Of a stretch of DNA of 64,000 bases, positions 1-54,771 are shown piece by piece. The notes under the pieces are model-generated. The model did not search any database. It was not told the origin of the DNA and saw only the letters and a program-made list of their open reading frames with translations. Numbering within the stretch: the first letter of the stretch is position 1; every line of letters begins with the position of its first letter. Origin of the DNA: Elusimicrobiota bacterium (GTDB taxonomy: Bacteria > Elusimicrobiota > Elusimicrobia > UBA1565 > JACRDR01); NCBI GenBank assembly GCA_041694815.1, contig JBGFSC010000021.1, forward strand, positions 1 through 64,000. The letters are read 5' to 3'. The translations under genes and the position numbers were made by a program.

Positions 1-127
1 TGTCACGAATTCGCGTTCTGTCAGGGAGTGCTTGCGCCTCATTCTTTTTAATTCTTTAAACGACATCCAACAGATTTCTCGTTCTTTCGGTAGGTGGTAA
101 CGATGTGCCCGACGAGTTCTATCCAAA

Positions 128-168
128 TAGGCCCTTAGGCCCCCGGCGGCATAGGCCTTTCGCACCTG
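128..168. promoter_or_regulatory. Tandem GGNCC-N3-GGNCC-type palindromic motif (site A)
   Basis: TAGGCCCTTAGGCCC at 128 and TAGGCCTTTCGCACC at 152, 24 bp apart, upstream of CDS 202. Confidence 0.55.
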
Positions 169-201
169 TAAAAAAGCCTGACGCGGGCCCACCCTTAGGG
201 C

Positions 202-1410
202 ATGAGCGCCATCAAACGCCTGGCCGCGGTACTGACCGCGGCGGCGGTCCTACCCCCCTTCGCCCTCGGGGACGATTCATTCGACAAGCTTCACGCCAAT
301 CCGCGCGAGGCGGTGGTCAATTACGAGGGAGTCAAGGTCAGCGGCCGGGCGGCCATGTACTATAAGGAAGTCCACCGCATGGCCGACGAGCTCAAGTCCC
401 GGGGGCTCGACCTTCGGGAGAGCCTCGACGTCATGGACGACAGCTACGCCGCGGTGTGGGCCAAACTCAGCGTCATCGAAGCCGTCTCCAAGAGCCGTAA
501 CGTCGACCGGCATAACACCCATCTCGAGCAGACCCTGATGTGGGTCGACGGCGTGATGCGCGATCGCGGCAGAAACGTCGCCATCCATACCCATCAGGTC
601 TTTTTCCACCACGCCAAGAACCCCCAGTCCGAGATCAACGAGGGCATCCGCCGCATGGGCAAGACAATCGAAGAGCTCGTCGAGAACCTGGGGAGCGGCG
701 GCAAGGCGGAGGAGAAGCTCGGGAGAATCGACGAGGTGATCCTGGGATTCGACACGCGCGGGCATGAGCCGATCAAACAGTACTTGAAGGGCCAGGAGCT
801 GCAGATCGCCGCAAAGCACGGAAAGCGTTTTCGTTTCGTCTACGTCGACGAGCTCGTCCGGGTCCCTTCGGATACGCAGGCGATGCGCGCCGAGCTCAAC
901 GCCCTGACGGCGCGCTACCGGGGCCAGGGCCTGCAGAAGATCATCGAGGGAGTCATCTACAGCCGCTACGTGGGGGTTCTGCTCGAACTCAAATCCATCG
1001 AATACTTCCTCCAACGGGGCTATGCCGTGCTTCAAAGCGGGCGCGAGCTCTTCGACGCCGAGGGGATGTATATCACCGAGTTGGACGCGGTGGTGCGCGG
1101 CCCCGAGGGCCGAATCGGGATCGTCGAGGCCAAGTCGGCGCGGGTACCGATCCCCCTGGAGCAGGCGTTGGCCGACAAGGTCCTCTACAAGCTCGAGACC
1201 TACGCCAAGCACCGCGCGGCTCTGGAGTCCGCCGTCGGATCCAAGCTCGACGATGTTTTCTTCACCTTCGACGTGGGCTGCGACAACGAGGCGCTGCCGC
1301 CTTTTCTCTCCAGGCGCGAATCGGAGCTTTCGAAGCAATACGCCCTAAATGTCAAGTTCCTTTTCCTGCACAGCGATCCGCAGCCCTGCGCCGAAGCCCG
1401 CCGTCGTTGA
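202..1410 (+). CDS. Exported hypothetical protein with a C-terminal PD-(D/E)XK nuclease-like motif
   Basis: 402-aa ORF; N-terminal signal peptide (MSAIKRLAAVLTAAAVLPPFALG); motif ELDAVV...GIVEAKS. Confidence 0.65.
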   Translation: MSAIKRLAAVLTAAAVLPPFALGDDSFDKLHANPREAVVNYEGVKVSGRAAMYYKEVHRMADELKSRGLDLRESLDVMDDSYAAVWAKLSVIEAVSKSRNVDRHNTHLEQTLMWVDGVMRDRGRNVAIHTHQVFFHHAKNPQSEINEGIRRMGKTIEELVENLGSGGKAEEKLGRIDEVILGFDTRGHEPIKQYLKGQELQIAAKHGKRFRFVYVDELVRVPSDTQAMRAELNALTARYRGQGLQKIIEGVIYSRYVGVLLELKSIEYFLQRGYAVLQSGRELFDAEGMYITELDAVVRGPEGRIGIVEAKSARVPIPLEQALADKVLYKLETYAKHRAALESAVGSKLDDVFFTFDVGCDNEALPPFLSRRESELSKQYALNVKFLFLHSDPQPCAEARRR

Positions 1411-1431
1411 TTATTGTATAATCCGCTCGTT

Positions 1432-1504
1432 GAGCCCGTAGCTCAGTTGGTAGAGCACCTGACTTTTAATCAGGTTGTCGTGGGTTCGAGTCCCACCGGG
1501 CTCA
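1432..1504 (+). tRNA. tRNA-Lys(UUU)
   Basis: Canonical cloverleaf; anticodon arm CCTGA-CTTTTAA-TCAGG; GTTCGAG T-loop; TATAAT at 1417-1422 upstream. Confidence 0.97.
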
Positions 1505-1526
1505 ATGTTTCTGTATCCGGTCTTCC

Positions 1527-1598
1527 GGCCCTATCGTCTATCGGCTAGGACGCGTCCCTTTCAAGGACGAAAGAGGGGTTCGACTCCCCTTAGGGCCA
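1527..1598 (+). tRNA. tRNA-Glu(UUC)
   Basis: Acceptor GGCCCTA/TAGGGCC; anticodon arm CGTCC-CTTTCAA-GGACG. Confidence 0.95.
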
Positions 1599-1616
1599 TT
1601 CTTAACCGTCTATCAG

Positions 1617-1644
1617 GGAACTAATTCTTTGCTCGTTCGTATAT
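1617..1644 (+). promoter_or_regulatory. Putative ECF-sigma promoter of atypical tRNA 1
   Basis: GGAACT(1617-1622)-N15-CGTATAT(1638-1644); same boxes and spacing at 2952-2925 on the minus strand. Confidence 0.65.
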
Positions 1645-1654
1645 TAATTAGACC

Positions 1655-1725
1655 TGCGGGGTAGTTCAACGGTAGAACGGTCGACCGTCAATCGGACAAT
1701 GTGGGTTCGACTCCCACCCCCGCAG
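1655..1725 (+). tRNA. Atypical tRNA, anticodon GUC (Asp) on a tRNA-Asn-like body
   Basis: Acceptor TGCGGGG/CCCCGCA, G73; D arm GTTC/GAAC; T arm GTGGG-TTCGACT-CCCAC; loop CCGTCAA has C33 instead of U33; weak anticodon stem. Confidence 0.8.
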
Positions 1726-1731
1726 CGTCCA

Positions 1732-1771
1732 GAAAGCCGCAATTTCCGTAACGGTCGATATTGCGGCTTTC
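1732..1771 (+). other. Trailer hairpin of atypical tRNA 1
   Basis: GAAAGCCGCAAT/ATTGCGGCTTTC 12-bp inverted repeat with a 16-nt loop partly complementary to the anticodon arm. Confidence 0.75.
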
Positions 1772-1778
1772 GGCCTTC

Positions 1779-1807
1779 TTGACCACTATAGAAGAGTCTG
1801 CTAAGCT
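1779..1807 (+). promoter_or_regulatory. Sigma70-type promoter of small RNA 1
   Basis: TTGACC-N17-TAAGCT with TG extended -10. Confidence 0.7.
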
Positions 1808-1813
1808 ATTGCT

Positions 1814-1868
1814 GACGGTCGACTTGTTGAACTACCGGGCCCCGGGCAACCGGGGCCTTCGTTTTTCT
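1814..1868 (+). ncRNA. Small RNA antisense to atypical tRNA 1
   Basis: 1813-1823 complements tRNA 1680-1690; 1826-1836 complements tRNA 1660-1670; ends in GGCCCCGG-GCAA-CCGGGGCC plus T-tract terminator. Confidence 0.75.
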
Positions 1869-1964
1869 GTGGCGAATAGCGTGCCTTACTCCGGACGCAG
1901 CGATTTCCGGCTGCGACCCAATGCCTTCAGACAGTTGTATAATGACGGGTCGCAGCGCCCAGGC

Positions 1965-2312
1965 ATGGACATCCGACTCGTTAAAACGCCCATCCCCTTT
2001 TCGGAAGTCGCGCAATTCGCCAAAAGCCAGTTCGGCGAAATGATCAAGGCGACGGTCGACGTCCAACGGGCGGTATTGGCCCTCGGGGGAGAGCTCCATT
2101 CCGACGAGGAGGCCCTATTGATCGAGGACGGCTCCAGGCAAGAGGATCTCTGGGGAATCAACATTTACCCGGAACAGTCCGGAGAGGATCGAGTCGAATT
2201 CGACTCGATGATCAACGTCAGGCCCTCGCAAAATAACCGCTCCCGCGGCGTGGAGAACGCCGAAACGAGGGCGCGCATCCTGGAAATCGTCGGCCGACTG
2301 CTCCTCTCCTGA
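1965..2312 (+). CDS. DUF5674-like hypothetical protein
   Basis: Recognised motifs KATVDV...GGELHSD.E..L...GS.QEDLWGINIYP...FDSMINVRPSQNNRSR; ATG at 1965; TATAAT about 22 nt upstream. Confidence 0.75.
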   Translation: MDIRLVKTPIPFSEVAQFAKSQFGEMIKATVDVQRAVLALGGELHSDEEALLIEDGSRQEDLWGINIYPEQSGEDRVEFDSMINVRPSQNNRSRGVENAETRARILEIVGRLLLS

Positions 2313-2635
2313 TGGCCCAGCACGCGGACTTGGCGGCGGGCCGTTGGGCGACGCTCTCCTTACTGGAGCAGATGGGAAATATCGGAAGCGAGATTAGCCG
2401 GGCCCGGCGTTGGCAGTCGAGGGACCCGAAGCTTTTCGACGGCGCGATGATACGCGCGCTCGAATTGCTGGACCTGTCCATCGGCGACCCTCGCTGGCGG
2501 CGCCGACTCAAGGAGTTGCTGCGGGCCCGGGAGCTGCTCTGCGACGCCTGGCTCGGCGGCATGGAATATCAAACGGATCTAGAAGGGCTGGACCGCTACT
2601 TCTTCCACTTCGCCGTTGCGGCCAGGAACTCCTGA
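2312..2635 (+). CDS. Small helical hypothetical protein, partner of the DUF5674-like gene
   Basis: 107 aa, TGATG-coupled; motif RW..LSLLEQMGNIGSEISRA. Confidence 0.75.
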   Translation: MAQHADLAAGRWATLSLLEQMGNIGSEISRARRWQSRDPKLFDGAMIRALELLDLSIGDPRWRRRLKELLRARELLCDAWLGGMEYQTDLEGLDRYFFHFAVAARNS

Positions 2636-2651
2636 GCTAAGGGGCGTAATC

Positions 2652-2708
2652 AAAACTAAGAAGGGCTTCGGTTTTCCCGAAGCCCTCGGTCGTCTAAGGC
2701 TGCCTCTC
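2652..2708 (-). ncRNA. Small RNA antisense to atypical tRNA 2
   Basis: TTGAGAGGCAGC (2710-2699) and TTAGACGAC (2697-2689) complement tRNA segments 2889-2878 and 2908-2900; ends in AGGGCTTCGG-GAAAA-CCGAAGCCCT plus T-rich tail. Confidence 0.75.
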
Positions 2709-2714
2709 AATGCT

Positions 2715-2742
2715 AGTTTAGCAGATCGCCCACATAAGTCAA
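2715..2742 (-). promoter_or_regulatory. Sigma70-type promoter of small RNA 2
   Basis: TTGACT-N16-TAAACT with TG extended -10; shares TCTGCTAARCT with the promoter at 1797-1807. Confidence 0.7.
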
Positions 2743-2796
2743 TATTTTTAATAGGGCGAGTGCTCTGTGCCGTGAACAGACTCGAAGATGGCAGTC

Positions 2797-2837
2797 GGAA
2801 CCGATCAATCTGCCCCCTTACAGCCATGATCGGCTCC
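2797..2837 (-). other. Trailer hairpin of atypical tRNA 2
   Basis: GGAGCCGATCA/TGATCGGTTCC 11-bp stem (one GU) with a 19-nt loop near-complementary to the anticodon arm. Confidence 0.7.
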
Positions 2838-2843
2838 ATAAGG

Positions 2844-2913
2844 CTGGGAGGCCGGGATTCGAACCCGGATAGGCTGTTTGAGAGGCAGCTGTCTTACCGT
2901 TAGACGACTCCCA
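2844..2913 (-). tRNA. Atypical tRNA, anticodon CUC (Glu) on a tRNA-Gln-like body
   Basis: TGGGAG-TC-GTCT-AACGGTA-AGAC-A-GCTGC-CTCTCAA-ACAGC-CTAT-CCGGG-TTCGAAT-CCCGG-CCTCCCA-G; 5' acceptor strand one nt short; C:A mismatch closes the anticodon stem. Confidence 0.78.
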
Positions 2914-2924
2914 GACCCACCTCG

Positions 2925-2952
2925 ATATACGAATAACTCCGCAAAAAGTTCC
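2925..2952 (-). promoter_or_regulatory. Putative ECF-sigma promoter of atypical tRNA 2
   Basis: GGAACT-N15-CGTATAT on the minus strand. Confidence 0.65.
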
Positions 2953-2976
2953 ATCCTCTCGTTGCGTCTGAGCCAA

Positions 2977-3059
2977 TAGGTCCTTAGGCCTATCTTCTGG
3001 TAGGCCCTTTCCCTTAGCTTCTTTTCCCTAAAGGCCCCTGCCCCTGGGCCCCGCGTACC
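2977..3059. promoter_or_regulatory. Tandem GGNCC-N3-GGNCC-type motif (site B)
   Basis: TAGGTCCTTAGGCCTA at 2977, TAGGCCCTTT at 3001, two weaker units about 22 bp further on; TACTAT at 3063. Confidence 0.55.
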
Positions 3060-3072
3060 GCATACTATCGAC

Positions 3073-5367
3073 ATGAAAATAAGAATCCACTTCCTGTTTA
3101 TATTCGGCTCCCTTTTATTCGGCCTTCTGCAACGCGGCGACGCCCTAGTCCCAAAGACCTGCAACGATGAATTCGCTCGCGGCGTCCGCGCGGGCGCCAA
3201 TACGCTACTTGCATTTAATGTTTCTGGAGAGGAGATATACAACGCGTTTGCCAGCGGAACTCAAATTGAATTTGACCTAGAAAGACAGTATGGCCTTCCC
3301 GAGCATATCCGTCAAAGTCTGCCCGCCGTCTTTGTGATGGCGCTGCACGATGACGAATATTACCAAGGGGTACTACGGTGCCTCGATGCGAAGGGCTATA
3401 AGACCGATAATCTCGTCGCATGGGTTAAAAAATATCGGGATTACACCACCTCGGCGGAAATCAAACAACGCTTGGAGGAGTTGAAGCACCTTCAAGCGCC
3501 AAAAATCGCCGACGTAGCCTTTGATGGTCGCCATCTGACTGCTGAGGAGGCAGCGGCCGTGGCCGCAGGCGCCGAGGGTGGTAAAACACCGAGCCTAAAC
3601 GAATTCTCAATCGACCTGACTTCCATGGCCGCCCAGGGGAAGCTCGACCCGATCGAGGGCAGAAAGAACGAAATCAAGGCATTGGTCCAGATCCTGCTCC
3701 GCCGCAGCAAGCCCAACGCCGTGTTGATCGGCGAGCCGGGAGTCGGCAAGACCGCCATCGTCGAGGGCCTCGCCCAGAAGATCGCCGCCGGCGAGATCCC
3801 GGAACTTGCCGGAAAGCGCGTGATGCAGCTCAACATCGGAGCGCTCATCGCGGGGACGAAATACCGCGGGGAATTCGAAGAACGGGTGCAGAATATCATG
3901 AAGGAACTTAAGGCCAGCCCGGACACCATCGTGTTCATCGATGAGTTCCACACCATCATGGGCGCCGGCGCCGCGGAGGGCGCCGTCGACATCTCCAACC
4001 TGCTTAAGCCAGCGATGGCCCGCGGGGAGATCCAGATCATCGGCGCGACAACCTTGGACGAATTCCGCCGCTTCGTCGAGAAGGATGGGGCCTTGGCTCG
4101 GCGCGTGGAAGGGGTGCGGGTGGACGCCCCGACGCCCGAAGATACCCTCGCGATTCTTAAGCGCCTCAAACCGAATTACGAAAAGCACCACAAGGTGAGC
4201 TACAGCGACGCCGCGCTGGAGGCCGCCGCCCGCACGGCTCCCCGCTACCTGCCGCAGCGGCAGCTGCCCGACAGCGCCATCGACCTGATGGACAAGGCGG
4301 GAAGCCTCGCGCGCACCGCTAAAAAAACCGTAGTCGAAGAGGAGGATATACTGGCCATCCTCGCGCAGATGACCGGAATTCCGGTCGACAAGCTCAGCGT
4401 CGACGAGCAGGAACGGCTGGTCCGCATGGAGGAGCACCTGCGCAAGCGGGTCAAGGGGCAGGAACACGTGATCAAGGCGGTTTCGGAAGCGGTCCGGAGG
4501 GCTTATGCGGGGCTGCGGGTCTCGCAGGGCCCCTTGGCCAGTTTCGTCTTCTTGGGACCCACCGGCGTCGGGAAAACGGAGCTCGCGAAAGCCCTGGCCG
4601 AATTCCTTTTCGGCACGGAAAAGGCGCTTATCCGCGAGGACTTGACGAATTACATGGAGCAACATTCCGTCTCAAAGCTTATCGGCTCGCCTCCCGGCTA
4701 CGTCGGCTACGAGGACGCTCCCTTTACCGAGCGGGTGCGCCAGAAGCCGTTTTCGGTCATCCTGCTCGACGAGCTCGACAAGGCGCATCCCGCGGTGCTC
4801 AACATCCTGCTCCCGGTATTAGACGACGGACATCTGACGGACAGCCATGGCAAGACCGTCGATTTCAAGAACACGATCATCATCATGACCTCCAATCATA
4901 TGAGCCAGGCCTTTTTCGCGAAGAAGACGAAATCAGTGGGCTTCCAAAAAGCCGAGCCCCCCGCGCCGCCTAAGGCGGCAAGCAAGGAAGCGATCGTGGC
5001 CGGCTTTAAGAGTTTCCTTAAACCCGAGCAGTTTAACCGCATCGACGAGGTCGTCGTGTTCAATACCTTGACGCCGGAGATACTCGAGTCCATCCTGGAC
5101 CAAATGATCTCGTCGTTCGTCGCGGAGCTGGAGAAAACGAAGAAGGTCCGCTTAGAAGTGAGCCCGCAGGCGCGGGCATTCCTTATCCAACAGGGCTACG
5201 ACCCCGAATTGGGCGCCCGACCAATGCGCCGGGCGATCCAGACCCAGCTTCTGACGCCGCTGTCGATGGAGATCCTAAAGCCCAAGCACGGCTCGCATCT
5301 TGTCGCCAAGCTCTCGGAGGACGGCGGCAGGATCGTGGTCGTCAGCACGGATGGAGGGCGTCAATGA
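3073..5367 (+). CDS. ClpA/ClpC-type double AAA+ ATPase with a signal peptide and non-canonical N-domain
   Basis: Walker A GEPGVGKT and GPTGVGKT; Walker B FIDEFH and LLDELDK; pore loops KYRG and GYVG; SVGF loop; GARPMRR; no M-domain. Confidence 0.92.
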   Translation: MKIRIHFLFIFGSLLFGLLQRGDALVPKTCNDEFARGVRAGANTLLAFNVSGEEIYNAFASGTQIEFDLERQYGLPEHIRQSLPAVFVMALHDDEYYQGVLRCLDAKGYKTDNLVAWVKKYRDYTTSAEIKQRLEELKHLQAPKIADVAFDGRHLTAEEAAAVAAGAEGGKTPSLNEFSIDLTSMAAQGKLDPIEGRKNEIKALVQILLRRSKPNAVLIGEPGVGKTAIVEGLAQKIAAGEIPELAGKRVMQLNIGALIAGTKYRGEFEERVQNIMKELKASPDTIVFIDEFHTIMGAGAAEGAVDISNLLKPAMARGEIQIIGATTLDEFRRFVEKDGALARRVEGVRVDAPTPEDTLAILKRLKPNYEKHHKVSYSDAALEAAARTAPRYLPQRQLPDSAIDLMDKAGSLARTAKKTVVEEEDILAILAQMTGIPVDKLSVDEQERLVRMEEHLRKRVKGQEHVIKAVSEAVRRAYAGLRVSQGPLASFVFLGPTGVGKTELAKALAEFLFGTEKALIREDLTNYMEQHSVSKLIGSPPGYVGYEDAPFTERVRQKPFSVILLDELDKAHPAVLNILLPVLDDGHLTDSHGKTVDFKNTIIIMTSNHMSQAFFAKKTKSVGFQKAEPPAPPKAASKEAIVAGFKSFLKPEQFNRIDEVVVFNTLTPEILESILDQMISSFVAELEKTKKVRLEVSPQARAFLIQQGYDPELGARPMRRAIQTQLLTPLSMEILKPKHGSHLVAKLSEDGGRIVVVSTDGGRQ

Positions 5368-6095
5368 GCGCGCTAAAGGCCGTGTCGCTCGCGATATTTC
5401 TGGCGTCGAGCCTCACCATGCCGGGATTCTCCCAATTCGAAGGTGATGTGATCAATATTCCACTTATACTTACGCCGGAAGAAGAATTTACCCTAGCCAT
5501 GAAGCGCTGGTTACGGGGGCGTGATATTCCCATCGTCAATCCTCCCGAAGAATTGATCGGTGTCTGGAATCTCAGCGCCCAGATATGGAGGATCCGAAGC
5601 AAGCACGAGCGTTCAGGAGACTTTCCTACGGAACGGGAAGAAGGTTCCACTCTCATCAGCCAGCACTGGGGCTGCCTGCGCTTCGTTCCCGCTCGGCACC
5701 CGGGAAACTTGACGGATCAAAATCGGTACGTTCAAGTCGGCGTCGGTTCCAACCTGGTCCCGAATCGCGACCTCGGGCGCAACGAATTTTTCAGTAACCT
5801 GACCGGAACGCGCTACGATTGCGGCGAGCATCTTAGCTTCGCCACGAACTTTGTCCCGAACAGCATCGATGACGCCTGGAGGAACCTTTTTATTTTCTCG
5901 GTGCCCGGTGACGAGATGAGGTTCGGCTGCCGCTTCCTCTCGGAATCCCAAGAGCGCATCGGCTGCCTCGTCAATTATCGCAACGGCACGCACGGGATCG
6001 TCGAATACGTGCGCGAGCAGCCCGGCGAAAAGGCCGCGCGTCGCGGCAGAAGCAGCAACTTCCTGCGGGTCCACCCCGACTGGCAGCCCGAATAA
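5364..6095 (+). CDS. Exported hypothetical protein
   Basis: 243 aa, ATGA overlap with the clp gene, N-terminal signal peptide. Confidence 0.65.
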   Translation: MSALKAVSLAIFLASSLTMPGFSQFEGDVINIPLILTPEEEFTLAMKRWLRGRDIPIVNPPEELIGVWNLSAQIWRIRSKHERSGDFPTEREEGSTLISQHWGCLRFVPARHPGNLTDQNRYVQVGVGSNLVPNRDLGRNEFFSNLTGTRYDCGEHLSFATNFVPNSIDDAWRNLFIFSVPGDEMRFGCRFLSESQERIGCLVNYRNGTHGIVEYVREQPGEKAARRGRSSNFLRVHPDWQPE

Positions 6096-17009: not shown

Positions 17010-17890
17010 GAGCGCCGCTTTTTCTGCTGTTGTGGCTACCCGCGCCCGCCCACGCGGTCGACGCCTCCCAGACGGCGGCCATCCAGGAATACTATAAAGA
17101 CGCCCTGAGGCTCTACAGCGAAGGCGACTATCGCCGCGCGGTGGCGAAATGGACCGAGATACTCAAGGTGGATCCCGATCAAAAGTCCGCCCAGGAGATG
17201 ATCGTCAAGGCCAGGGAGCTAATTGAGGCCGCCACCGCGGAGCGGCACAAGCGCATCCGCCAGCGCATCACCGAGGGCCGCTACAACGACGCCAGGCTCG
17301 AACTCCAGGCCTTGCTCGACCAGGACCCCAATGAACCCGTGCATCTGGAGACGCAGCGGCGTTTGGCACAGATCATTGATATCGTCGGAGAACGCGCGGG
17401 GACGGGAAAGGCCTGGCGCATGGCGGCATTGGGTCTTTCCGGCTATCTCGGGAGCCCCGAGCGGCCGCATCTTGCCTTCGACGCCCTGCGCTACGCCAAG
17501 GAGCTCGACCCCGCCGAGCCCAAGTTCTCCGCACTGCTCGATCTGCTCTTGACCGCTCATCCGGCCTTCTCCGAGGAGCGAATCACCTCTGGCATGAAAT
17601 TGCTCGAATACAAGCATTTCATGGCCCTGCACAACATCTACGGCGGCAATTATCCCGGGGCCGTCACCCTGCTCGAGGAGATACTCGCATTGGAGCCGAA
17701 CGACTTGACGGCCTTAAAGCGGCTGGGCACCGCCTTCTACTCCTTGAAGGAATGGGATAAAGCCAGGAGCGCCTGGAGGCGGGCGCAGGCCATGGCTCCC
17801 AAGGACCCGATGCTCAAAAAGTTTATTGCCCGGGCCGAGCGCCAGCTCAGAACGAATAAGAGATCCGCAATGAGACGGTCATCTCGGTGA
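17006..17890 (+). CDS. Exported tetratricopeptide-repeat protein
   Basis: Signal peptide MRAPLFLLLWLPAPAHA; several TPR-like helical pairs; overlaps the convergent gene by 44 bp. Confidence 0.82.
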   Translation: MRAPLFLLLWLPAPAHAVDASQTAAIQEYYKDALRLYSEGDYRRAVAKWTEILKVDPDQKSAQEMIVKARELIEAATAERHKRIRQRITEGRYNDARLELQALLDQDPNEPVHLETQRRLAQIIDIVGERAGTGKAWRMAALGLSGYLGSPERPHLAFDALRYAKELDPAEPKFSALLDLLLTAHPAFSEERITSGMKLLEYKHFMALHNIYGGNYPGAVTLLEEILALEPNDLTALKRLGTAFYSLKEWDKARSAWRRAQAMAPKDPMLKKFIARAERQLRTNKRSAMRRSSR

Positions 17891-19766
17891 TGTCTATAGG
17901 CGATATCCCCTTATCTTTCTGTTTATTGGCGCCCAGGCCGAAGGCGAGATTGAGCTGGCGGTCATAATTCCACGTGAACTCGGAGTTTGCCGAGGCGTTC
18001 GTACTATCGGTCGGGAACTTCGGCGATGTATTCTTCGTCGTGTTGTAACTCCCCCAAAACTGCCCGGTCCAATTCTTGGCCATCGGGGTGGTGAAGCTCG
18101 GGCCCACCGAACGACTGGTTCTCTTGGAGCCGTCGATCCTGTTCTTGGTCTCCGAGGAGGTCACTCCGAAGGAGAGGCCTCGAGACTTGGGCAGCCTCCA
18201 GCTCGAGGACAAGGTCAGGGTCAAGGTATCGAGGTCGTGCGCCAGTTTGTTCTTGTCCCTGAATTGGCTCAATTGCCCCCCGAGGGAAACCCCATGCCCC
18301 GCCTGGAAGCTCTGGCCCAGGCTCAGGCCGACGGTGGTCGTTTGATTGTTTAACGCCGTAGAAGGTTTTCCCTGGGCCGTGTTGAGATTCGCGCTGAGAT
18401 TGACGTTGGTTCTAGTCGGCAATTGCAGCCCTTGCAGCAGGGTCACGGAACGCTGCGTCGTGGTGACGAAGCGCGGGTTGTTGTCCAAGTTGTCGCGGAA
18501 CTGATTGAATGAGATGTTGGCGTTATACCAGGACACTGGAAAGACGGTCAGGTTGCCGTCATAAGTGAGACGGTTGCCGATCACTGCGGGAGCCCCAAAG
18601 GTAATGAAATTCGGTCCCGCGCGTTGGATGAAGGTCTTGATCTTAAAGAAGGAGTGCTCCCAGGAGATATCCCCCCGCCATGCCTTGTCCTGGGCTCCGG
18701 CCTTGGTGGTGTCCGCGAAGAAGCGGTCGATCTGGTAGGCTCCCGAAAAGGAAAGCTTGGGGCGAGGATTCCATGCCAGCGTCCCTCCATAGCCGCTATT
18801 TTTCTGCGCCGCCAGGGTAGGGCCTCGATAATTCGGGGATTTGGGATCGGTGCTGAGCGATCCGGTCTCATCGGCGCTTAGGAAATAATTGATCGAGGCG
18901 CGCAGGTTCCATGGCAGCTCGCGGCCGAGCTTGGCCCCGTAAAGCGAGCGGGCGTAACGGCCGTTGACCGTCAGGGTGCCCGGCTGCGAGGTGATGGTCT
19001 GCCCTCCCAGTACCGTCCACTCCCAATCGTTGCGCCGTTGCTCCAAGGCCGCGCCGCGCATACCCTGGCCGGCGACCGAAAGGGGGCCAAGCACCGGCGC
19101 GACGTCGCCGGCATAGATCGTGCCCCAGGGGGCGTAATAGGTGGCTAGGATGATGGCGGGGTCGAACACGTTGCCCGGTAGATGCCGCAGGTACGCGTTG
19201 ATGAGGTAGGAGGAGTCGCGCAGCTTACCCACCGCGTTGAGGCTGGTCGCGCCTTGATGATTGCTCCAGCCGTTCCGGCTGAAATTCTTGTAAAACGCGG
19301 TGATGTTGCCTTCCAAACGATAATTGACCACCTCGGGAGGCGGCGGGATGGGACGTTCGACGACTTGGAAAGGCTTGAAATCGGATTGGATCAACGTGCG
19401 CCCTTCCTTAATGAGAAAGACGCGGTAGAGATGCCTTCCAAACATCGTCGGAGGAACCGGGAAGGGCACCGAGATGGAGGCGACGCCGCCAGGCGCCACC
19501 GCCTCGCGCGGCGAGATCTGCTCGGTCCGAGCGACCATTTGATTCTCGAGATCATAGATCTCGGCATACCAATAATAGCTTCCGCCTTCCCAGCTCAGCG
19601 CTCCCGTGTTGACCGCCAAGGCTTGGATGGAGAGCACCTCACCCGCGGGCACCGGATCAGGAGCGGGAATCGTGAATTGAAGGCTGGCCGAATCGGTGGT
19701 TTGCGCCGCGGCGTGGCGGAGGCAGAAGGCAAGCGCGAAGACGAGGAGACTAACTCGCCGGCGCAT
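17847..19766 (-). CDS. Outer-membrane beta-barrel protein with an N-terminal Ig-like domain
   Basis: Signal peptide, alternating beta-strand pattern, C-terminal LRISYSF. Confidence 0.78.
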   Translation of the reverse strand: MRRRVSLLVFALAFCLRHAAAQTTDSASLQFTIPAPDPVPAGEVLSIQALAVNTGALSWEGGSYYWYAEIYDLENQMVARTEQISPREAVAPGGVASISVPFPVPPTMFGRHLYRVFLIKEGRTLIQSDFKPFQVVERPIPPPPEVVNYRLEGNITAFYKNFSRNGWSNHQGATSLNAVGKLRDSSYLINAYLRHLPGNVFDPAIILATYYAPWGTIYAGDVAPVLGPLSVAGQGMRGAALEQRRNDWEWTVLGGQTITSQPGTLTVNGRYARSLYGAKLGRELPWNLRASINYFLSADETGSLSTDPKSPNYRGPTLAAQKNSGYGGTLAWNPRPKLSFSGAYQIDRFFADTTKAGAQDKAWRGDISWEHSFFKIKTFIQRAGPNFITFGAPAVIGNRLTYDGNLTVFPVSWYNANISFNQFRDNLDNNPRFVTTTQRSVTLLQGLQLPTRTNVNLSANLNTAQGKPSTALNNQTTTVGLSLGQSFQAGHGVSLGGQLSQFRDKNKLAHDLDTLTLTLSSSWRLPKSRGLSFGVTSSETKNRIDGSKRTSRSVGPSFTTPMAKNWTGQFWGSYNTTKNTSPKFPTDSTNASANSEFTWNYDRQLNLAFGLGANKQKDKGISPIDITEMTVSLRISYSF

Positions 19767-53759: not shown

Positions 53760-54771
53760 TGGTGCCAGGCATCCACTTTCTACACTTTCTCAACTTTTGG
53801 AACTTTTAGGCCTCCTCATTCGTACTTGAGGTATGGGCCGCCAACCGAGACTGCATTTCCCCGGAGCTATCTTCCATGTGAGCGCCCGCGGCAATGGACG
53901 ACAGACTATCTTTTTTGATTCTCAAGACTGGAACAAGTTTCTTGATATTCTAGGCGAATTAAAACGAATCCGTCCCTTCAAGCTTTACGCTTACTGCCTT
54001 ATGGGCAATCATATCCATTTGCTGATCGAACCTTCTGGTCCCAAATTGTCCCTAATTATGGGCTTATTACTTGCGCGTTATGCCAAGTACCTTAACGCCA
54101 GATTTAAGCGCAACGGGCATGTTTTTCAGAATCGATTTCATGCGCGTCTTTGTGGAAAAGACTCTTATTTCCAACAAGTCATCCGATATATTCATTTAAA
54201 TCCCGTAGAGGCGGGACTTGCCGATGAACCGTCACGGTGGCCGTACTCGGGACACCTGGAATATCTCGGAAAATCTACCCGCCATCTTATCGATCAGGAA
54301 CAGCTTTTATCAATGTTGGGCTCTGATATTAGAACGGCACGGGCCGCCTATAGCCAATTTGTCTTGGGTGCGTTAAAAGACGATTATCTTTCTGTGGGCG
54401 AGACCGAGGACTTATCCAACGCTCGCGAATCTGACATTCACTTTAAAGCCGTCCAAGTCCATGTTAACGAGAAAAGTCTAGATGAAATTTGCGCGGAATT
54501 TAAGCCGATCTCATTGGAAATACTGCGAAGCTCGAGCAAGGTACGGACGGTTTGTCGCGCTCGACATCGTTTTATCGCCTGTGCTTTTGCGGCAGGCTAT
54601 TCGCTCACTGAAGTCGCGGCCTATCTTGGATTATCTTTGTCTGCGGTTTCAAAAGCACTAAACACCAAAGAACCTAAGGCTTGCCTGAGATCAGCTAATC
54701 GAATTTATGTGGACGACGGCAGGCAGCTATTAGAAAGTCAATAAAGTGTAGAAAGTGGATGCCTGGCACCA
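53760..54771. mobile_element. Y1-transposase element bounded by perfect 29-bp inverted repeats
   Basis: TGGTGCCAGGCATCCACTTTCTACACTTT at 53760-53788, reverse complement at 54743-54771; visibly AT-richer than the flanks. Confidence 0.85.
53833..54744 (+). CDS. RAYT-like HUH (Y1) transposase with a C-terminal HTH
   Basis: FHVSARGN, AYCLMGNHIHLL, GHVFQNRF, YIHLNPVEAGL, WPYS. Confidence 0.92.
   Translation: MGRQPRLHFPGAIFHVSARGNGRQTIFFDSQDWNKFLDILGELKRIRPFKLYAYCLMGNHIHLLIEPSGPKLSLIMGLLLARYAKYLNARFKRNGHVFQNRFHARLCGKDSYFQQVIRYIHLNPVEAGLADEPSRWPYSGHLEYLGKSTRHLIDQEQLLSMLGSDIRTARAAYSQFVLGALKDDYLSVGETEDLSNARESDIHFKAVQVHVNEKSLDEICAEFKPISLEILRSSSKVRTVCRARHRFIACAFAAGYSLTEVAAYLGLSLSAVSKALNTKEPKACLRSANRIYVDDGRQLLESQ

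What the first reader, a model, noticed from the sequence alone, without database searches (positions are those of the whole stretch)
2844..2913. tRNA with Glu anticodon on a Gln-like scaffold and an irregular acceptor stem
Seen: TGGGAG...CCTCCCAG ends typical of tRNA-Gln, but loop CTCTCAA (CUC). The 5' acceptor strand is 6 nt if U2913 is position 1. Alternatively C2914 starts a 7-bp stem, leaving an extra C at the T-arm junction. It parallels tRNA 1: amide-type body, acid anticodon. A normal tRNA-Glu(UUC) is already present at 1527.
Basis: partly seen in the sequence, partly recalled or inferred. Interest (0 to 1): 0.8.

Follow-up and report, generated by a model that had tools for sequence, protein, structure and literature searches.

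The report
Guarded dual-identity tRNA with its own antisense RNA
This odd glutamate-reading tRNA gene belongs to an apparently undescribed family of extra tRNA genes, each switched on by a stress-type promoter and each followed by a small RNA gene complementary to that tRNA, which looks like a locked-down device for deliberately misreading the genetic code.

Summary
A tRNA gene at 2844-2913 (-) has anticodon CUC, U1-A72, G73 and a 5' acceptor strand one base short.

It is not the genome's normal tRNA-Glu(CUC), which lies on another contig. It is one of two extra tRNAs in the window (the other is "Asp" GUC, 1655-1725). Both belong to a family of about 50 modules seen in the same bacterial order.

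Each module has:
- an ECF-sigma-type promoter (GGAAC-N16/17-CGTA);
- a class-I tRNA;
- a trailer hairpin, often carrying an anti-anticodon;
- a sigma-70 promoter driving a roughly 55-nt RNA whose first 22 or so bases pair with the tRNA's anticodon arm and D arm, followed by a terminator.

Guides co-vary with their own tRNAs. The genome lacks GlnRS and AsnRS and has GatB. Both window tRNAs carry the GatCAB identity marks (U1-A72, short D loop).

My best reading, at about 40%, is stress-induced, antisense-gated Glu-to-Gln and Asp-to-Asn mistranslation. No expression or charging data were obtainable. The missing G7 is peculiar to this copy, which may be crippled.

Two earlier notes of this scan describe cis antisense elements at tRNA genes in other lineages. 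They do not describe this architecture.

The parts
2927..2952 (-). ECF-sigma-type promoter of the CUC tRNA. The -35 element GGAAC is at 2952-2948, the spacer is 16 nt, and the -10 element CGTAT is at 2931-2927, ending 13 nt before tRNA position 1.
   Evidence: Motif present in 31 of 35 odd tRNAs and 0 of 10 canonical ones. A PWM built only from other genomes ranks this site 3rd of 39 in the own genome, at 36.3 bits. The same motif precedes an ECF sigma gene.
2844..2913 (-). The tRNA of the finding: anticodon CUC, U1-A72, G73, 7-nt D loop, 4-nt variable loop, C31.A39, and a 5' acceptor strand lacking G7.
   Evidence: ARAGORN; Rfam tRNA 45.0 bits with a deletion at model position 6; family alignment and RNAalifold.
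2797..2837 (-). 3' trailer hairpin. Its loop holds GGGGGCAG (2817-2810), which can pair with tRNA positions 28-35 (8 pairs, two of them G.U). No T run follows the hairpin.
   Evidence: Sequence read. Seventeen of 35 modules have an exact antisense block of 7 nt or more at the same place. The scan did not call it a terminator.
2715..2742 (-). Sigma-70-type promoter of the partner small RNA (TTGACT, 16-nt spacer, TAAACT, with an upstream TG).
   Evidence: Called independently by the promoter scan. An equivalent promoter ends 2-11 nt before the antisense block in 25 of 35 modules.
2689..2710 (-). Guide of the partner small RNA. TTGAGAGGCAGC is the reverse complement of tRNA positions 26-37 (the anticodon included). 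CTTAGACGAC is the reverse complement of positions 6-14 plus one more base.
   Evidence: Blocks of 12 nt and 9 nt exact. Cofolding gains -14.6 kcal/mol with its own tRNA against 0.0 for this small RNA with the window's other odd tRNA, and -1.1 for the converse pair (this tRNA with the other small RNA). No other two-block target exists in the genome.
2652..2687 (-). Intrinsic terminator of the small RNA: an 11-bp GC-rich hairpin with a GAAAA loop, followed by a T-rich tail.
   Evidence: Terminator scan. A hairpin plus T run is present in 32 of 35 modules.
1616..1642 (+). Sister module: ECF-type promoter (GGGAAC 1616-1621, 16-nt spacer, CGTAT 1638-1642).
   Evidence: PWM rank 7 of 39, 32.8 bits.
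1655..1725 (+). Sister tRNA: anticodon GUC, U1-A72, G73, 7-nt D loop, anticodon loop CCGUCAA (C33).
   Evidence: ARAGORN; Rfam 58.7 bits. The guide has a G opposite C33, so C33 is not a sequencing slip.
1733..1770 (+). Sister module: trailer hairpin whose loop carries ACGGTCGA (1751-1758), the reverse complement of tRNA positions 28-35.
   Evidence: 8-nt exact block 25 nt after the tRNA.
1779..1866 (+). Sister module: the small-RNA gene. It comprises TTGACC (1779-1784), TAAGCT (1802-1807), guide 1813-1836 (11 + 11 nt antisense to tRNA positions 27-37 and 6-16) and terminator 1837-1866.
   Evidence: cofold gain -19.2 kcal/mol with its own tRNA; terminator called.

Best explanation
The gene is the tRNA half of a self-contained two-RNA module. 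An ECF-type alternative-sigma promoter drives an extra class-I tRNA whose anticodon reads the Glu codon GAG. Its acceptor end and D loop carry the marks (U1-A72, no base 20A/20B) by which bacterial GatCAB picks tRNA-Gln.

This genome has no GlnRS or AsnRS and relies on GatCAB. The tRNA would therefore be charged with Glu by the non-discriminating GluRS and amidated to Gln-tRNA. It would then put Gln at GAG codons. The sister tRNA at 1655 would put Asn at GAC/GAU.

Two antisense elements keep this activity locked:
- a short anti-anticodon in the loop of the tRNA's own 3' trailer hairpin;
- a constitutively (sigma-70) transcribed RNA of about 55-60 nt, encoded 100-130 nt downstream, whose 5' 22 nt pair with tRNA positions ~26-37 and ~6-16. 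This pairing unfolds the anticodon and D arms and hides the anticodon.

When the ECF sigma is activated, tRNA output would exceed the guard RNA and give a burst of Glu-to-Gln / Asp-to-Asn mistranslation.

What is shown: the anatomy, its conservation in about 50 copies, tRNA-guide covariation, the shared promoter motif including the sigma's own gene, and the synthetase and GatB inventory.

What is inferred: transcription, pairing in vivo, charging, amidation, decoding and the biological purpose.

This particular copy lacks G7 and may work poorly or not at all.
For: 1. It is not the normal isoacceptor. The genome has 48 tRNA genes, including canonical Glu(CUC), Glu(UUC), Asp(GUC), Gln x2 and Asn.
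2. In the own genome, 2 of 2 odd tRNAs have both the GGAAC-N16-CGTA motif and an exact downstream antisense block of 10 nt or more covering the anticodon. None of the 46 others has either.
3. In kin genomes, 31 of 35 odd tRNAs carry the promoter motif against 0 of 10 canonical tRNAs in the same loci. Of 31 motif-bearing tRNAs, 28 have an antisense block of 10 nt or more over the anticodon, against 0 of 10 canonical.
4. Sixteen more family tRNAs were fetched later, all with the motif. Fifteen have an antisense block of 9 nt or more. The sixteenth is cut by a contig end.
5. Guides track their own tRNA. The cognate is best or co-best in 28 of 35, with a median block of 12 nt against 6 nt for non-cognate pairs.
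6. Cofold gains are -19.2 and -14.6 kcal/mol for cognate pairs, against 0.0 and -1.1 for swapped pairs.
7. The tRNAs are under tRNA-type selection: 18 of 20 consensus pairs show compensatory changes.
8. The promoter scan, built without the own sites, gave 39 own-genome hits. One lies directly upstream of an ECF sigma gene (Sigma70_r2 + r4_2), which is the expected autoregulation. Fourteen have ATG exactly 8 nt after CGTA, meaning leaderless mRNAs.
9. GlnRS scores 63.5 bits against a cut-off of 425.8. AsnRS scores 83.1 against 342.6. GatB scores 573 against 314.8.
10. Published enzymology (passages read in PMC1635274): a tRNA-Asn carrying the Asp anticodon (C36) is aspartylated and amidated as well as wild type. 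U1-A72 plus absence of U20A suffices to make tRNA-Asp a GatCAB substrate. PMC2811023 gives the structural basis.
11. A covariance model of promoter plus tRNA finds its best non-family matches in tRNA-Asn, tRNA-Gln and tRNA-Arg(UCU).
Against:
- This copy lacks G7, which leaves a 6-bp stem with a bulged C.
- Several family members have C33 instead of the near-universal U33, including the window's GUC tRNA. Some have U37. Both are poor for ribosomal decoding.
- The amide reading covers only 24 of 35 members with U1-A72. Five have C1-G72 and six have G1-C72 with an extra D-loop base.
- The family also carries anticodons GAC, GCU, ACC, GCC, GGC and GUA.
- By overall identity the bodies are not specifically Gln/Asn-derived.
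- The trailer hairpin is not a terminator, so the ECF transcript probably carries its own guide in cis. The predicted fold of that precursor is not a cloverleaf. This complicates a simple titration model.
- GluRS acceptance of this body is assumed, not tested.
Confidence: 0.4

Rival explanations
1. RNA-only toxin-antitoxin or abortive-infection module. The dual-identity tRNA is the toxin, poisoning the proteome with charge-neutralising and often catalytically dead D-to-N / E-to-Q substitutions. The antisense RNA is its antitoxin. The module persists as a selfish or defence element rather than as an adaptive stress response.
For: - Modules are self-contained, with no conserved protein neighbour: 44 of 147 listed ORFs from 11 loci were scanned and gave no shared family.
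- They are multi-copy, up to 6 per genome.
- They are patchy: 35 of 101 genomes of the order match the class-I pattern, and only 3 of 38 in one genus.
- They are sometimes arrayed.
- Each guide is specific for its own tRNA.
- The same sigma regulon holds HNH nucleases, an MT-A70 methylase, XRE-type regulators and an IS200-like gene.
Against: - A dedicated regulated (ECF) promoter is unusual for a toxin gene.
- There is no evidence of mobility: 0 matches in viral contigs and no flanking repeats were looked for.
- Toxicity is untested.
- The molecular mechanism is the same as in the best explanation, so only the purpose differs.
Confidence: 0.2
2. Non-translational tRNA. The extra tRNAs deliver amino acids to, or regulate, some process outside the ribosome during the ECF response, such as cell-envelope or peptide aminoacylation. 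Alternatively they act as decoys for anticodon nucleases. In this reading the antisense RNA merely sets their level.
For: - C33 and U37 in several members, and the odd acceptor stems, fit tRNAs that avoid the ribosome.
- ECF sigmas commonly answer envelope stress (general knowledge, not tested here).
- The mix of anticodons on class-I bodies (Ser GCU, Tyr GUA) cannot be cognate.
Against: - No aminoacyl-tRNA-using enzyme gene (Fem/MprF/LanB/CDPS type) was seen next to any module.
- The anticodon GUC with A37 A38 is kept in 20 of 35 members, which points to codon or synthetase reading.
Confidence: 0.15
3. Dead or dying gene. This copy, and possibly the whole repeat family, is a tRNA-derived relic without function. 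The complementarity would be left over from an inverted partial duplication.
For: - One-base loss in the acceptor stem, and a C31.A39 mismatch.
- One relative (L033) has lost its guide complementarity.
- Four of 20 pattern-selected loci gave no ARAGORN tRNA.
Against: - Compensatory changes keep the cloverleaf in 18 of 20 pairs.
- Guide and tRNA co-vary across diverged copies.
- The promoter, guide promoter and terminator of this copy are intact and score high.
- The C31.A39 mismatch recurs in 6 members, so it is a shared trait and not decay.
Confidence: 0.2
4. It is the lineage's ordinary tRNA-Glu(CUC), and the missing base is an assembly error.
For: The anticodon is CUC. The highest overall identity among own-genome tRNAs is to the canonical Glu(CUC), at 72.7%.
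Against: - A canonical Glu(CUC) with G1-C72, a longer D loop and encoded CCA exists on contig C54.
- The window gene has a different promoter class and a dedicated antisense partner, unlike all 46 ordinary tRNAs.
- Its relatives carry varied anticodons on the same body. One example is GUA on TGGGAGG/CCTCCCA.
Confidence: 0.03

Closest known systems
Natural mistranslating tRNAs of Streptomyces/Kitasatospora (tRNA-ProX: a proline tRNA body with Ala, Asn or Thr anticodons; PMC10404621, abstract and outline read)
   Same: An extra, chromosomally encoded tRNA whose anticodon and identity elements disagree. It is predicted (there, shown) to substitute one amino acid for another proteome-wide, and is proposed as a stress device.
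   Different: - There the tRNA sits beside a dedicated ProRS isoform. Here no synthetase gene is nearby, and mis-identity would arise through the shared GatCAB pathway.
- Here each tRNA has an ECF-type promoter and a dedicated antisense RNA plus an anti-anticodon trailer. The abstract I read mentions none of these.
- Mistranslation is shown there and only inferred here.
GatCAB substrate identity of bacterial tRNA-Gln/tRNA-Asn, and the laboratory variant tRNA-Asn(C36) (PMC1635274 and PMC2811023, passages read)
   Same: U1-A72 and a D loop lacking base 20A/20B. The anticodon plays no part in amidation, so an Asn or Gln body with an acid anticodon is amidated.
   Different: Those are engineered transcripts tested in vitro. 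Here the combination occurs naturally, in many copies, with its own regulation. The overall bodies are not close copies of the genome's tRNA-Gln or tRNA-Asn.
Antisense-RNA control modules (type I toxin-antitoxin pairs, and type VIII pairs in which both partners are RNAs; recalled, with reviews seen only as listings)
   Same: A constitutively made small RNA, encoded next to its target, neutralises by base-pairing a product that is presumably harmful.
   Different: The target here is a tRNA, not an mRNA or a toxin small RNA. Pairing is in two blocks that skip the D loop. The target has a separate stress promoter. Toxicity is untested.
T-box leader RNAs (PMC7583486, search listing only; mechanism recalled)
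   Same: An RNA presents a codon that pairs with the anticodon of a specific tRNA.
   Different: - No T-box match in Rfam at E up to 1.
- Pairing here runs 11-17 nt into the anticodon stem, plus a second block on the D arm, which would unfold the tRNA rather than dock it.
- There is no acceptor-end sensing element.
- The RNA is a stand-alone transcript.

Membership tests
tRNA (Rfam RF00005) | Cloverleaf scoring above the curated gathering score | tested here: met
   45.0 bits against 29. ARAGORN also calls it.
tRNA (Rfam RF00005) | Seven-base-pair acceptor stem | tested here: not met
   One-base deletion in the 5' strand. It is the only one of 35 family members with this gap.
Canonical bacterial tRNA-Glu | Anticodon YUC | tested here: met
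   CUC in a 7-nt loop CUCUCAA.
Canonical bacterial tRNA-Glu | G1-C72, and a D loop with an extra base (20A/20B), as in this genome's own tRNA-Glu genes | tested here: not met
   U1-A72 and a 7-nt D loop. The own tRNA-Glu(CUC) and (UUC) have G1-C72 and 9- and 8-nt D loops.
GatCAB substrates (tRNA-Gln/Asn identity; PMC1635274, PMC2811023) | U1-A72 first pair | tested here: met
   Twenty-four of 35 family members share it.
GatCAB substrates (tRNA-Gln/Asn identity; PMC1635274, PMC2811023) | D loop without the supernumerary base after G18G19 | tested here: met
   AACGGUA, the same length as the own tRNA-Gln(CUG), tRNA-Gln(UUG) and tRNA-Asn.
GatCAB substrates (tRNA-Gln/Asn identity; PMC1635274, PMC2811023) | Actually charged with Glu and amidated | not testable with these tools
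   Needs enzymology. The pathway is present: GatB 573 bits, and no GlnRS or AsnRS above cut-off.
tRNA-Gln proper | Anticodon YUG | tested here: not met
   The anticodon is CUC. The own genome has Gln(UUG) and Gln(CUG) elsewhere.
Dedicated mistranslating tRNAs (tRNA-ProX type) | Anticodon and identity elements belong to different amino acids | tested here: met
   By sequence features only.
Dedicated mistranslating tRNAs (tRNA-ProX type) | Adjacent dedicated synthetase isoform | tested here: not met
   The neighbours are DUF5674, a Clp-type ATPase, dapB, folK and panBC. No shared neighbour was found in other loci.
ECF-sigma-dependent promoters | -35 GGAAC and -10 CGT(A) separated by 16-17 nt, with the same motif in front of the sigma gene itself | tested here: met
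   (own-genome hit upstream of a 180-aa Sigma70_r2/r4_2 protein). Actual sigma dependence is not testable here.
Antisense RNA antitoxin systems (type I / VIII) | Neighbouring small RNA complementary to the harmful partner | tested here: met
Antisense RNA antitoxin systems (type I / VIII) | The partner is toxic when unguarded | not testable with these tools
   Needs expression experiments.
T-box riboswitch | Conserved T-box fold and antiterminator | tested here: not met
   No T-box family match in 1-6000 at E up to 1.

The most novel reading that the evidence does not exclude
A previously unknown class of RNA-only genetic switch: dual-identity 'pro-tRNAs' kept inert by a cognate anti-tRNA small RNA and by a cis anti-anticodon. 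A competence- or stress-type ECF sigma releases them to recode acidic codons as amides proteome-wide (Asp to Asn, Glu to Gln). Sister classes (Arg-like bodies with Ser, Gly, Ala or Val anticodons) would recode other codons. In effect this would be programmable, orthogonal, regulated mistranslation, or a tRNA toxin with an RNA antitoxin.
Probability: 0.3. Interest if true: 0.95.

Novelty: categorically new. Interest (0 to 1): 0.86.

Why it matters
If the reading holds, bacteria possess a compact, protein-free module that switches the meaning of chosen codons on demand and keeps that switch safely off with a matching anti-tRNA RNA. That would matter in four ways:
- It would be the first natural example of a small RNA whose dedicated target is a tRNA.
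- It would be a second, mechanistically different case of encoded mistranslation, after tRNA-ProX.
- It would link the GatCAB pathway to deliberate Asp-to-Asn / Glu-to-Gln recoding.
- It would offer a ready-made set of orthogonal tRNA/anti-tRNA pairs for synthetic biology.

Even if the purpose is different, the conserved tRNA-plus-antisense architecture under an alternative sigma factor is a new kind of locus. It makes the question of whether cells regulate mistranslation directly testable.

Tried and rejected
- **DUF5674 gene (1965-2312) as a partner.** It lies between the two window modules, but tblastn found it in none of the 17 other loci then held.
- **Any conserved protein neighbour.** I chose 44 of 147 listed ORFs (about 140 aa or more, picked by eye) from 11 loci. 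They gave unrelated housekeeping or mobile genes.
- **Terminator hairpin as a family marker.**
  - In the order it matched 70 of 101 genomes, but the reversed-pattern control also matched often.
  - In all genomes it hit mostly generic terminators of unrelated taxa. Of the 80 loci scanned, 7 held a tRNA, and only 3 of those were lineage modules.
- **Gapped local-alignment score for complementarity.** The background was too high, so I replaced it with exact-block lengths.
- **Typing the bodies by overall identity.** There was no clear Gln or Asn descent. Five of the 6 G1-C72 members are closest to tRNA-Arg.
- **Independent copies in metagenome contigs.** Two patterns gave 0 matches.
- **Viral contigs.** 0 matches.
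- **Other targets of the two window guides.** Only single blocks of 12-14 nt at chance-level E-values were found.
- **Literature.** Five full-text searches returned no paper describing a bacterial small RNA dedicated to a tRNA, or ECF-driven tRNA genes. That covers the held library only.
- **Rfam.** Nothing but tRNAs in 1-6000, plus one sub-threshold plastid match antisense to tRNA-Lys.
Full report
**1. Observation**

The minus strand of 2844-2913 encodes a tRNA. ARAGORN calls tRNA-Glu(ctc) at 2842-2913. The Rfam tRNA model scores 45.0 bits (gathering 29) and aligns it with one deleted position in the 5' acceptor strand and a C31.A39 mismatch.

Read directly, the 3' acceptor strand is CCUCCCA (7 nt) and the 5' strand is UGGGAG (6 nt). 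The first pair is U1-A72 and the discriminator is G. The D loop is AACGGUA (7 nt), the variable loop has 4 nt, and the anticodon loop is CUCUCAA.

The window also holds tRNA-Lys(UUU), tRNA-Glu(UUC) and a second odd tRNA at 1655-1725. That one has anticodon GUC, U1-A72, G73, a 7-nt D loop and loop CCGUCAA with C33.

**2. It is an extra tRNA, not the normal one**

The whole assembly has 2.77 Mb, 63% G+C and 54 contigs, and holds 48 tRNA genes. They include:
- canonical tRNA-Glu(CUC) on C54 and tRNA-Asp(GUC) on C6, both with G1-C72, long D loops and encoded CCA;
- tRNA-Gln(UUG), tRNA-Gln(CUG) and tRNA-Asn(GUU), all with U1-A72 and 7-nt D loops.

So in this genome the amide tRNAs have U1-A72 plus a short D loop. 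The acid tRNAs have G1-C72 plus a long D loop. The two window oddities combine amide marks with acid anticodons.

By overall identity, however, the CUC tRNA is closest to the canonical Glu(CUC) (72.7%; Gln(CUG) 67.1%). The GUC tRNA is closest to tRNA-Gly(UCC) (79.7%; Asn 69.9%). The likeness to Gln/Asn is therefore one of identity elements, not of descent.

**3. A family in related genomes**

A DNA search of 41 related genomes found matches in 14. ARAGORN on the loci showed look-alike tRNAs with anticodons CUC, GUC, GCC, ACC and GGC.

The best match (G033, 92% identity) is cut by a contig end, but its 5' acceptor strand has 7 nt. A later-fetched relative with the same stem (G097, L239, anticodon CUC) reads TGGGAGG ... 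CCTCCCA G. In the 35-member alignment only the window copy has the gap.

The short strand is therefore a private one-base loss, or an assembly error, and not a family trait. The base after the guide's D-arm block (a C) would pair with the lost G7. This is a weak hint that the loss is recent (read).

**4. The module**

I printed each odd tRNA with its flanks. They share a fixed architecture.

(a) *Upstream promoter.* The motif is (G)GGAAC, then 16-17 nt, then CGTA(T), ending 8-16 nt before tRNA position 1. It is present in 31 of 35 odd tRNAs and in 0 of 10 canonical tRNAs lying in the same loci.

(b) *The tRNA.*

(c) *A trailer hairpin.* In 17 of 35 modules, an exact block of 7-10 nt about 22-31 nt after the tRNA is antisense to positions ~27-36. 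In the window these are ACGGTCGA at 1751-1758 and, with two G.U pairs, GGGGGCAG at 2817-2810.

(d) *A sigma-70-type promoter.* TTGAC(A)-N16-19-TAnnnT ends 2-11 nt before the next block, in 25 of 35 modules by a strict regular expression. The window's 2742-2715 promoter was also called independently by the scan tool.

(e) *A guide.* It is the reverse complement of tRNA positions ~24-41 (10-17 nt exact), followed by the reverse complement of positions ~5-17. It skips the D loop and the 3' D-stem strand.

(f) *A GC-rich hairpin with a GNRA-type loop and a T run.* This is present in 32 of 35 modules. Both window terminators were called.

*Statistics on the antisense block.*
- Of 31 motif-bearing tRNAs, 28 have an exact antisense block of 10 nt or more over the anticodon. 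For 26 of those 28 blocks, at most 2 of 200 shuffles matched the length. L023 and L003 were matched by 5 and 2 shuffles.
- Of the 14 tRNAs without the regex motif, four reach 10 nt. All four are odd family tRNAs whose promoter differs (L002, L004, L050c, L054).
- The 10 canonical tRNAs reach at most 9 nt. One tRNA cut by a contig end was left out.
- In the own genome, 2 of 2 odd tRNAs and 0 of 46 others have the promoter motif and an anticodon-covering block of 10 nt or more. Two others have blocks of 10-11 nt elsewhere in the tRNA.

**5. Specificity and covariation**

- *Guide matching.* Each guide fits its own tRNA best or co-best in 28 of 35 cases. The median exact block is 12 nt for cognate pairs and 6 nt for the 1190 non-cognate pairs.
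- *C33.* The guide has a G opposite C33 in the C33-bearing tRNAs and an A opposite U33 in the others. C33 is therefore genuine.
- *Cofolding.* The window pairs gain -19.2 (GUC module) and -14.6 kcal/mol (CUC module) over the separate folds. Swapped pairs gain 0.0 and -1.1.
- *Other targets.* No other place in the genome offers both blocks.
- *Cloverleaf.* The tRNAs themselves keep the cloverleaf through compensatory changes in 18 of 20 consensus pairs.
- *Rfam.* No family matches the guide RNA.

**6. The promoter is an ECF-sigma promoter with a regulon**

I built a weight matrix from 29 sites of other genomes, leaving the own sites out. It found 39 sites of 16 bits or more in the own genome. 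The CUC module ranks 3rd (36.3 bits) and the GUC module 7th (32.8 bits).

Fourteen of the 39 have ATG exactly 8 nt after CGTA, which means leaderless mRNAs.

I scanned 21 of the downstream ORFs, choosing those with a start within about 17 nt. They include:
- a 180-aa protein with Sigma70_r2 and r4_2, that is an ECF-type sigma preceded by its own motif;
- ComEC, a ComM-like ChlI ATPase, RadC and a ComF-like phosphoribosyltransferase;
- three HNH endonucleases and an MT-A70 methyltransferase;
- four retropepsin-like proteins;
- two XRE-type regulators and an ORF6N protein;
- an IS200-like gene in this window (53833-54744).

The odd tRNAs thus appear to belong to a regulon with a DNA-uptake and nuclease flavour. 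Ordinary tRNA genes in these loci have TTGnnn/TATAAT promoters.

**7. Distribution**

A covariance model of promoter plus tRNA (31 of the 35 sequences; the four without the motif were left out) was run over 151 genomes of the class.
- Matches of 80 bits or more occur in 12 of 43 genomes of the order (own genome included) and in 0 of 108 genomes of other orders.
- Ordinary tRNAs score 75 bits or less. The best of these are tRNA-Asn, tRNA-Gln and tRNA-Arg(UCU).
- One genome of another family (G171, L220) has a Glu(UUC) tRNA with a matching downstream guide but a different upstream sequence.

A strict pattern for promoter plus U1-type acceptor matched 64 places in 35 of 101 genomes of the order, up to 6 per genome. 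The reversed control gave 7 matches. A minority of the 64 are leaderless genes rather than tRNAs.

Of 20 such places fetched, 16 gave a tRNA with the motif, and 15 of these have an antisense block of 9 nt or more. Four gave no ARAGORN call.

No conserved protein gene accompanies the modules. No copy was found in viral contigs.

**8. What the tRNAs might carry**

First pairs among the 35 members are U1-A72 in 24, C1-G72 in 5 and G1-C72 in 6. The discriminator is G in 26 and A in 9. Anticodons are GUC 20, CUC 6, GAC 2, GCU 2, and one each of UUC, GCC, ACC, GGC and GUA.

- *U1-A72 class.* This class includes both window genes and has no extra base after G18G19. Passages read in PMC1635274 show that these two features are what bacterial GatCAB requires. 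A tRNA-Asn given the Asp anticodon (C36) is aspartylated and amidated at least as well as wild type (kcat/KM 1.35 against 0.53). tRNA-Asp given U1-A72 and lacking U20A becomes a good substrate. PMC2811023 gives the structural basis: a GatB 3-10 turn reads the first pair, and the tail domain reads the D loop.
- *Pathway in the own genome.* The assembly is 97.8% complete. It has GatB (573 bits) but nothing above cut-off for GlnRS (63.5 against 425.8) or AsnRS (83.1 against 342.6). Its AspRS and GluRS must therefore be non-discriminating. An acid anticodon on an amide-marked body should end up carrying the amide.
- *G1-C72 class.* These members have an extra D-loop base, and 5 of 6 are closest to tRNA-Arg. 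Their anticodons are for Ser, Gly, Ala or Val, which hints that mismatched identity is general. I did not test that further.
- *Features against ribosomal use.* These are C33 or U37 in several members, the C1-G72 class (whose GatCAB status is unknown), and this copy's damaged stem.

**9. How it most likely works**

The constitutively made guide RNA, and the anti-anticodon of the trailer, pair with the 5' side of the anticodon arm and with the D arm. This hides the anticodon from GluRS/AspRS and from the ribosome and unfolds the tRNA core.

The trailer hairpin lacks a T run, so the ECF-driven transcript probably runs through to the guide's terminator. The predicted fold of that precursor pairs the guide with the tRNA's 5' half instead of forming a cloverleaf. 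The energies are -105.1 and -108.5 kcal/mol, with z-scores of -7.05 and -4.77. The primary product would thus be a self-locked pro-tRNA that needs processing, and removal or out-titration of the guide, to become active.

My confidence:
- about 0.9 that the module is a real, selected tRNA-plus-antisense unit;
- about 0.4 that its output is gated Asp-to-Asn / Glu-to-Gln mistranslation, whether adaptive or toxin-like;
- about 0.3-0.4 that this particular copy is impaired by the lost G7.

None of transcription, pairing, charging or decoding is shown.

**10. Comparison and novelty**

The nearest known system is the tRNA-ProX family of Streptomyces (PMC10404621, abstract read). These are also extra tRNAs with clashing anticodon and identity. 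They are coupled to a dedicated ProRS, and the abstract mentions no antisense partner.

Antisense toxin-antitoxin pairs and T-box leaders share single features only. The first share a neighbouring neutralising RNA, and the second share codon-anticodon pairing (see the membership table).

Five full-text searches found no description of a bacterial small RNA dedicated to a tRNA or of ECF-driven tRNA genes.

Two earlier notes of this scan describe cis elements complementary to tRNA-Gly and tRNA-Pro in gene leaders of other phyla. The theme is related, the architecture is different, and I did not check them.

I therefore rate the locus as a new kind of module.

Noticed in passing
window 1655-1866 (+): A second complete module. 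The tRNA has anticodon GUC, U1-A72, G73 and C33. It has its own ECF-type promoter (1616-1642), an anti-anticodon trailer hairpin (1733-1770) and a guide RNA gene (1779-1866).
   Followed up: yes
own genome: 39 sites, e.g. C36:17539 (sigma gene 17575-18117), C14:12207 (ComEC), C38:47732 (ComM-like), C35:7978 (RadC); window 53799-54744: A GGAAC-N16/17-CGTAT promoter regulon. Fourteen of the 39 sites have ATG exactly 8 nt after the -10 element, meaning leaderless mRNAs. Members include an autoregulated ECF-type sigma, DNA-uptake genes, three HNH nucleases, an MT-A70 methylase, four retropepsin-like proteins, XRE regulators and an IS200-like gene in this window.
   Followed up: partly
window 1965-2312 (+): A DUF5674 gene (PF18924, E 1.8e-32) starts about 100 nt after the guide-RNA terminator of the GUC module, on the same strand. 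It could be reached by read-through. It is not found next to modules in other genomes.
   Followed up: partly
kin loci L002 (159-232), L013, L049 (1549-1621), L050 (1213-1286, 2977-3051), L057 (1556-1628): A sub-class of guarded tRNAs with G1-C72, A73 and an extra D-loop base. Five of the 6 bodies are closest to tRNA-Arg, but the anticodons are ACC, GGC, GAC and GCU. If ArgRS charges them, they are possible Arg-misinserting tRNAs.
   Followed up: partly
kin loci L052 (6868-6940), L238, L240: A Tyr anticodon (GUA) sits on a short-variable-arm body almost identical to the window's CUC tRNA (TGGGAGG/CCTCCCA). Bacterial TyrRS normally needs a long variable arm, so this cannot be a cognate tRNA-Tyr.
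   Followed up: no
locus L220 (G171, another family of the class), 227-298 (-): A Glu(UUC) tRNA with C1-G72 and a matching downstream guide RNA, but without the GGAAC/CGTA promoter. The module idea therefore reaches beyond the order, under different control.
   Followed up: no
own genome C54:94489-94564 (-): ARAGORN calls a 'tRNA-Met' here. Its 3' 48 nt are identical to the initiator-type tRNA on C25, while the 5' part is unrelated. It looks like the duplicated 3' half left by an element integrated into a tRNA gene.
   Followed up: no
loci L099-L101 (one contig of an unrelated MAG): Three copies of the same 24-nt GC hairpin about 700-870 nt apart on one contig, with no tRNA called by ARAGORN within 450 nt of any copy. 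Not examined further.
   Followed up: no
window 1432-1505 (-): A sub-threshold Rfam match (Plastid-ycf2 5'UTR, 36.6 bits against a gathering score of 65.7) antisense to tRNA-Lys. It is almost certainly a by-product of tRNA-like sequence.
   Followed up: no
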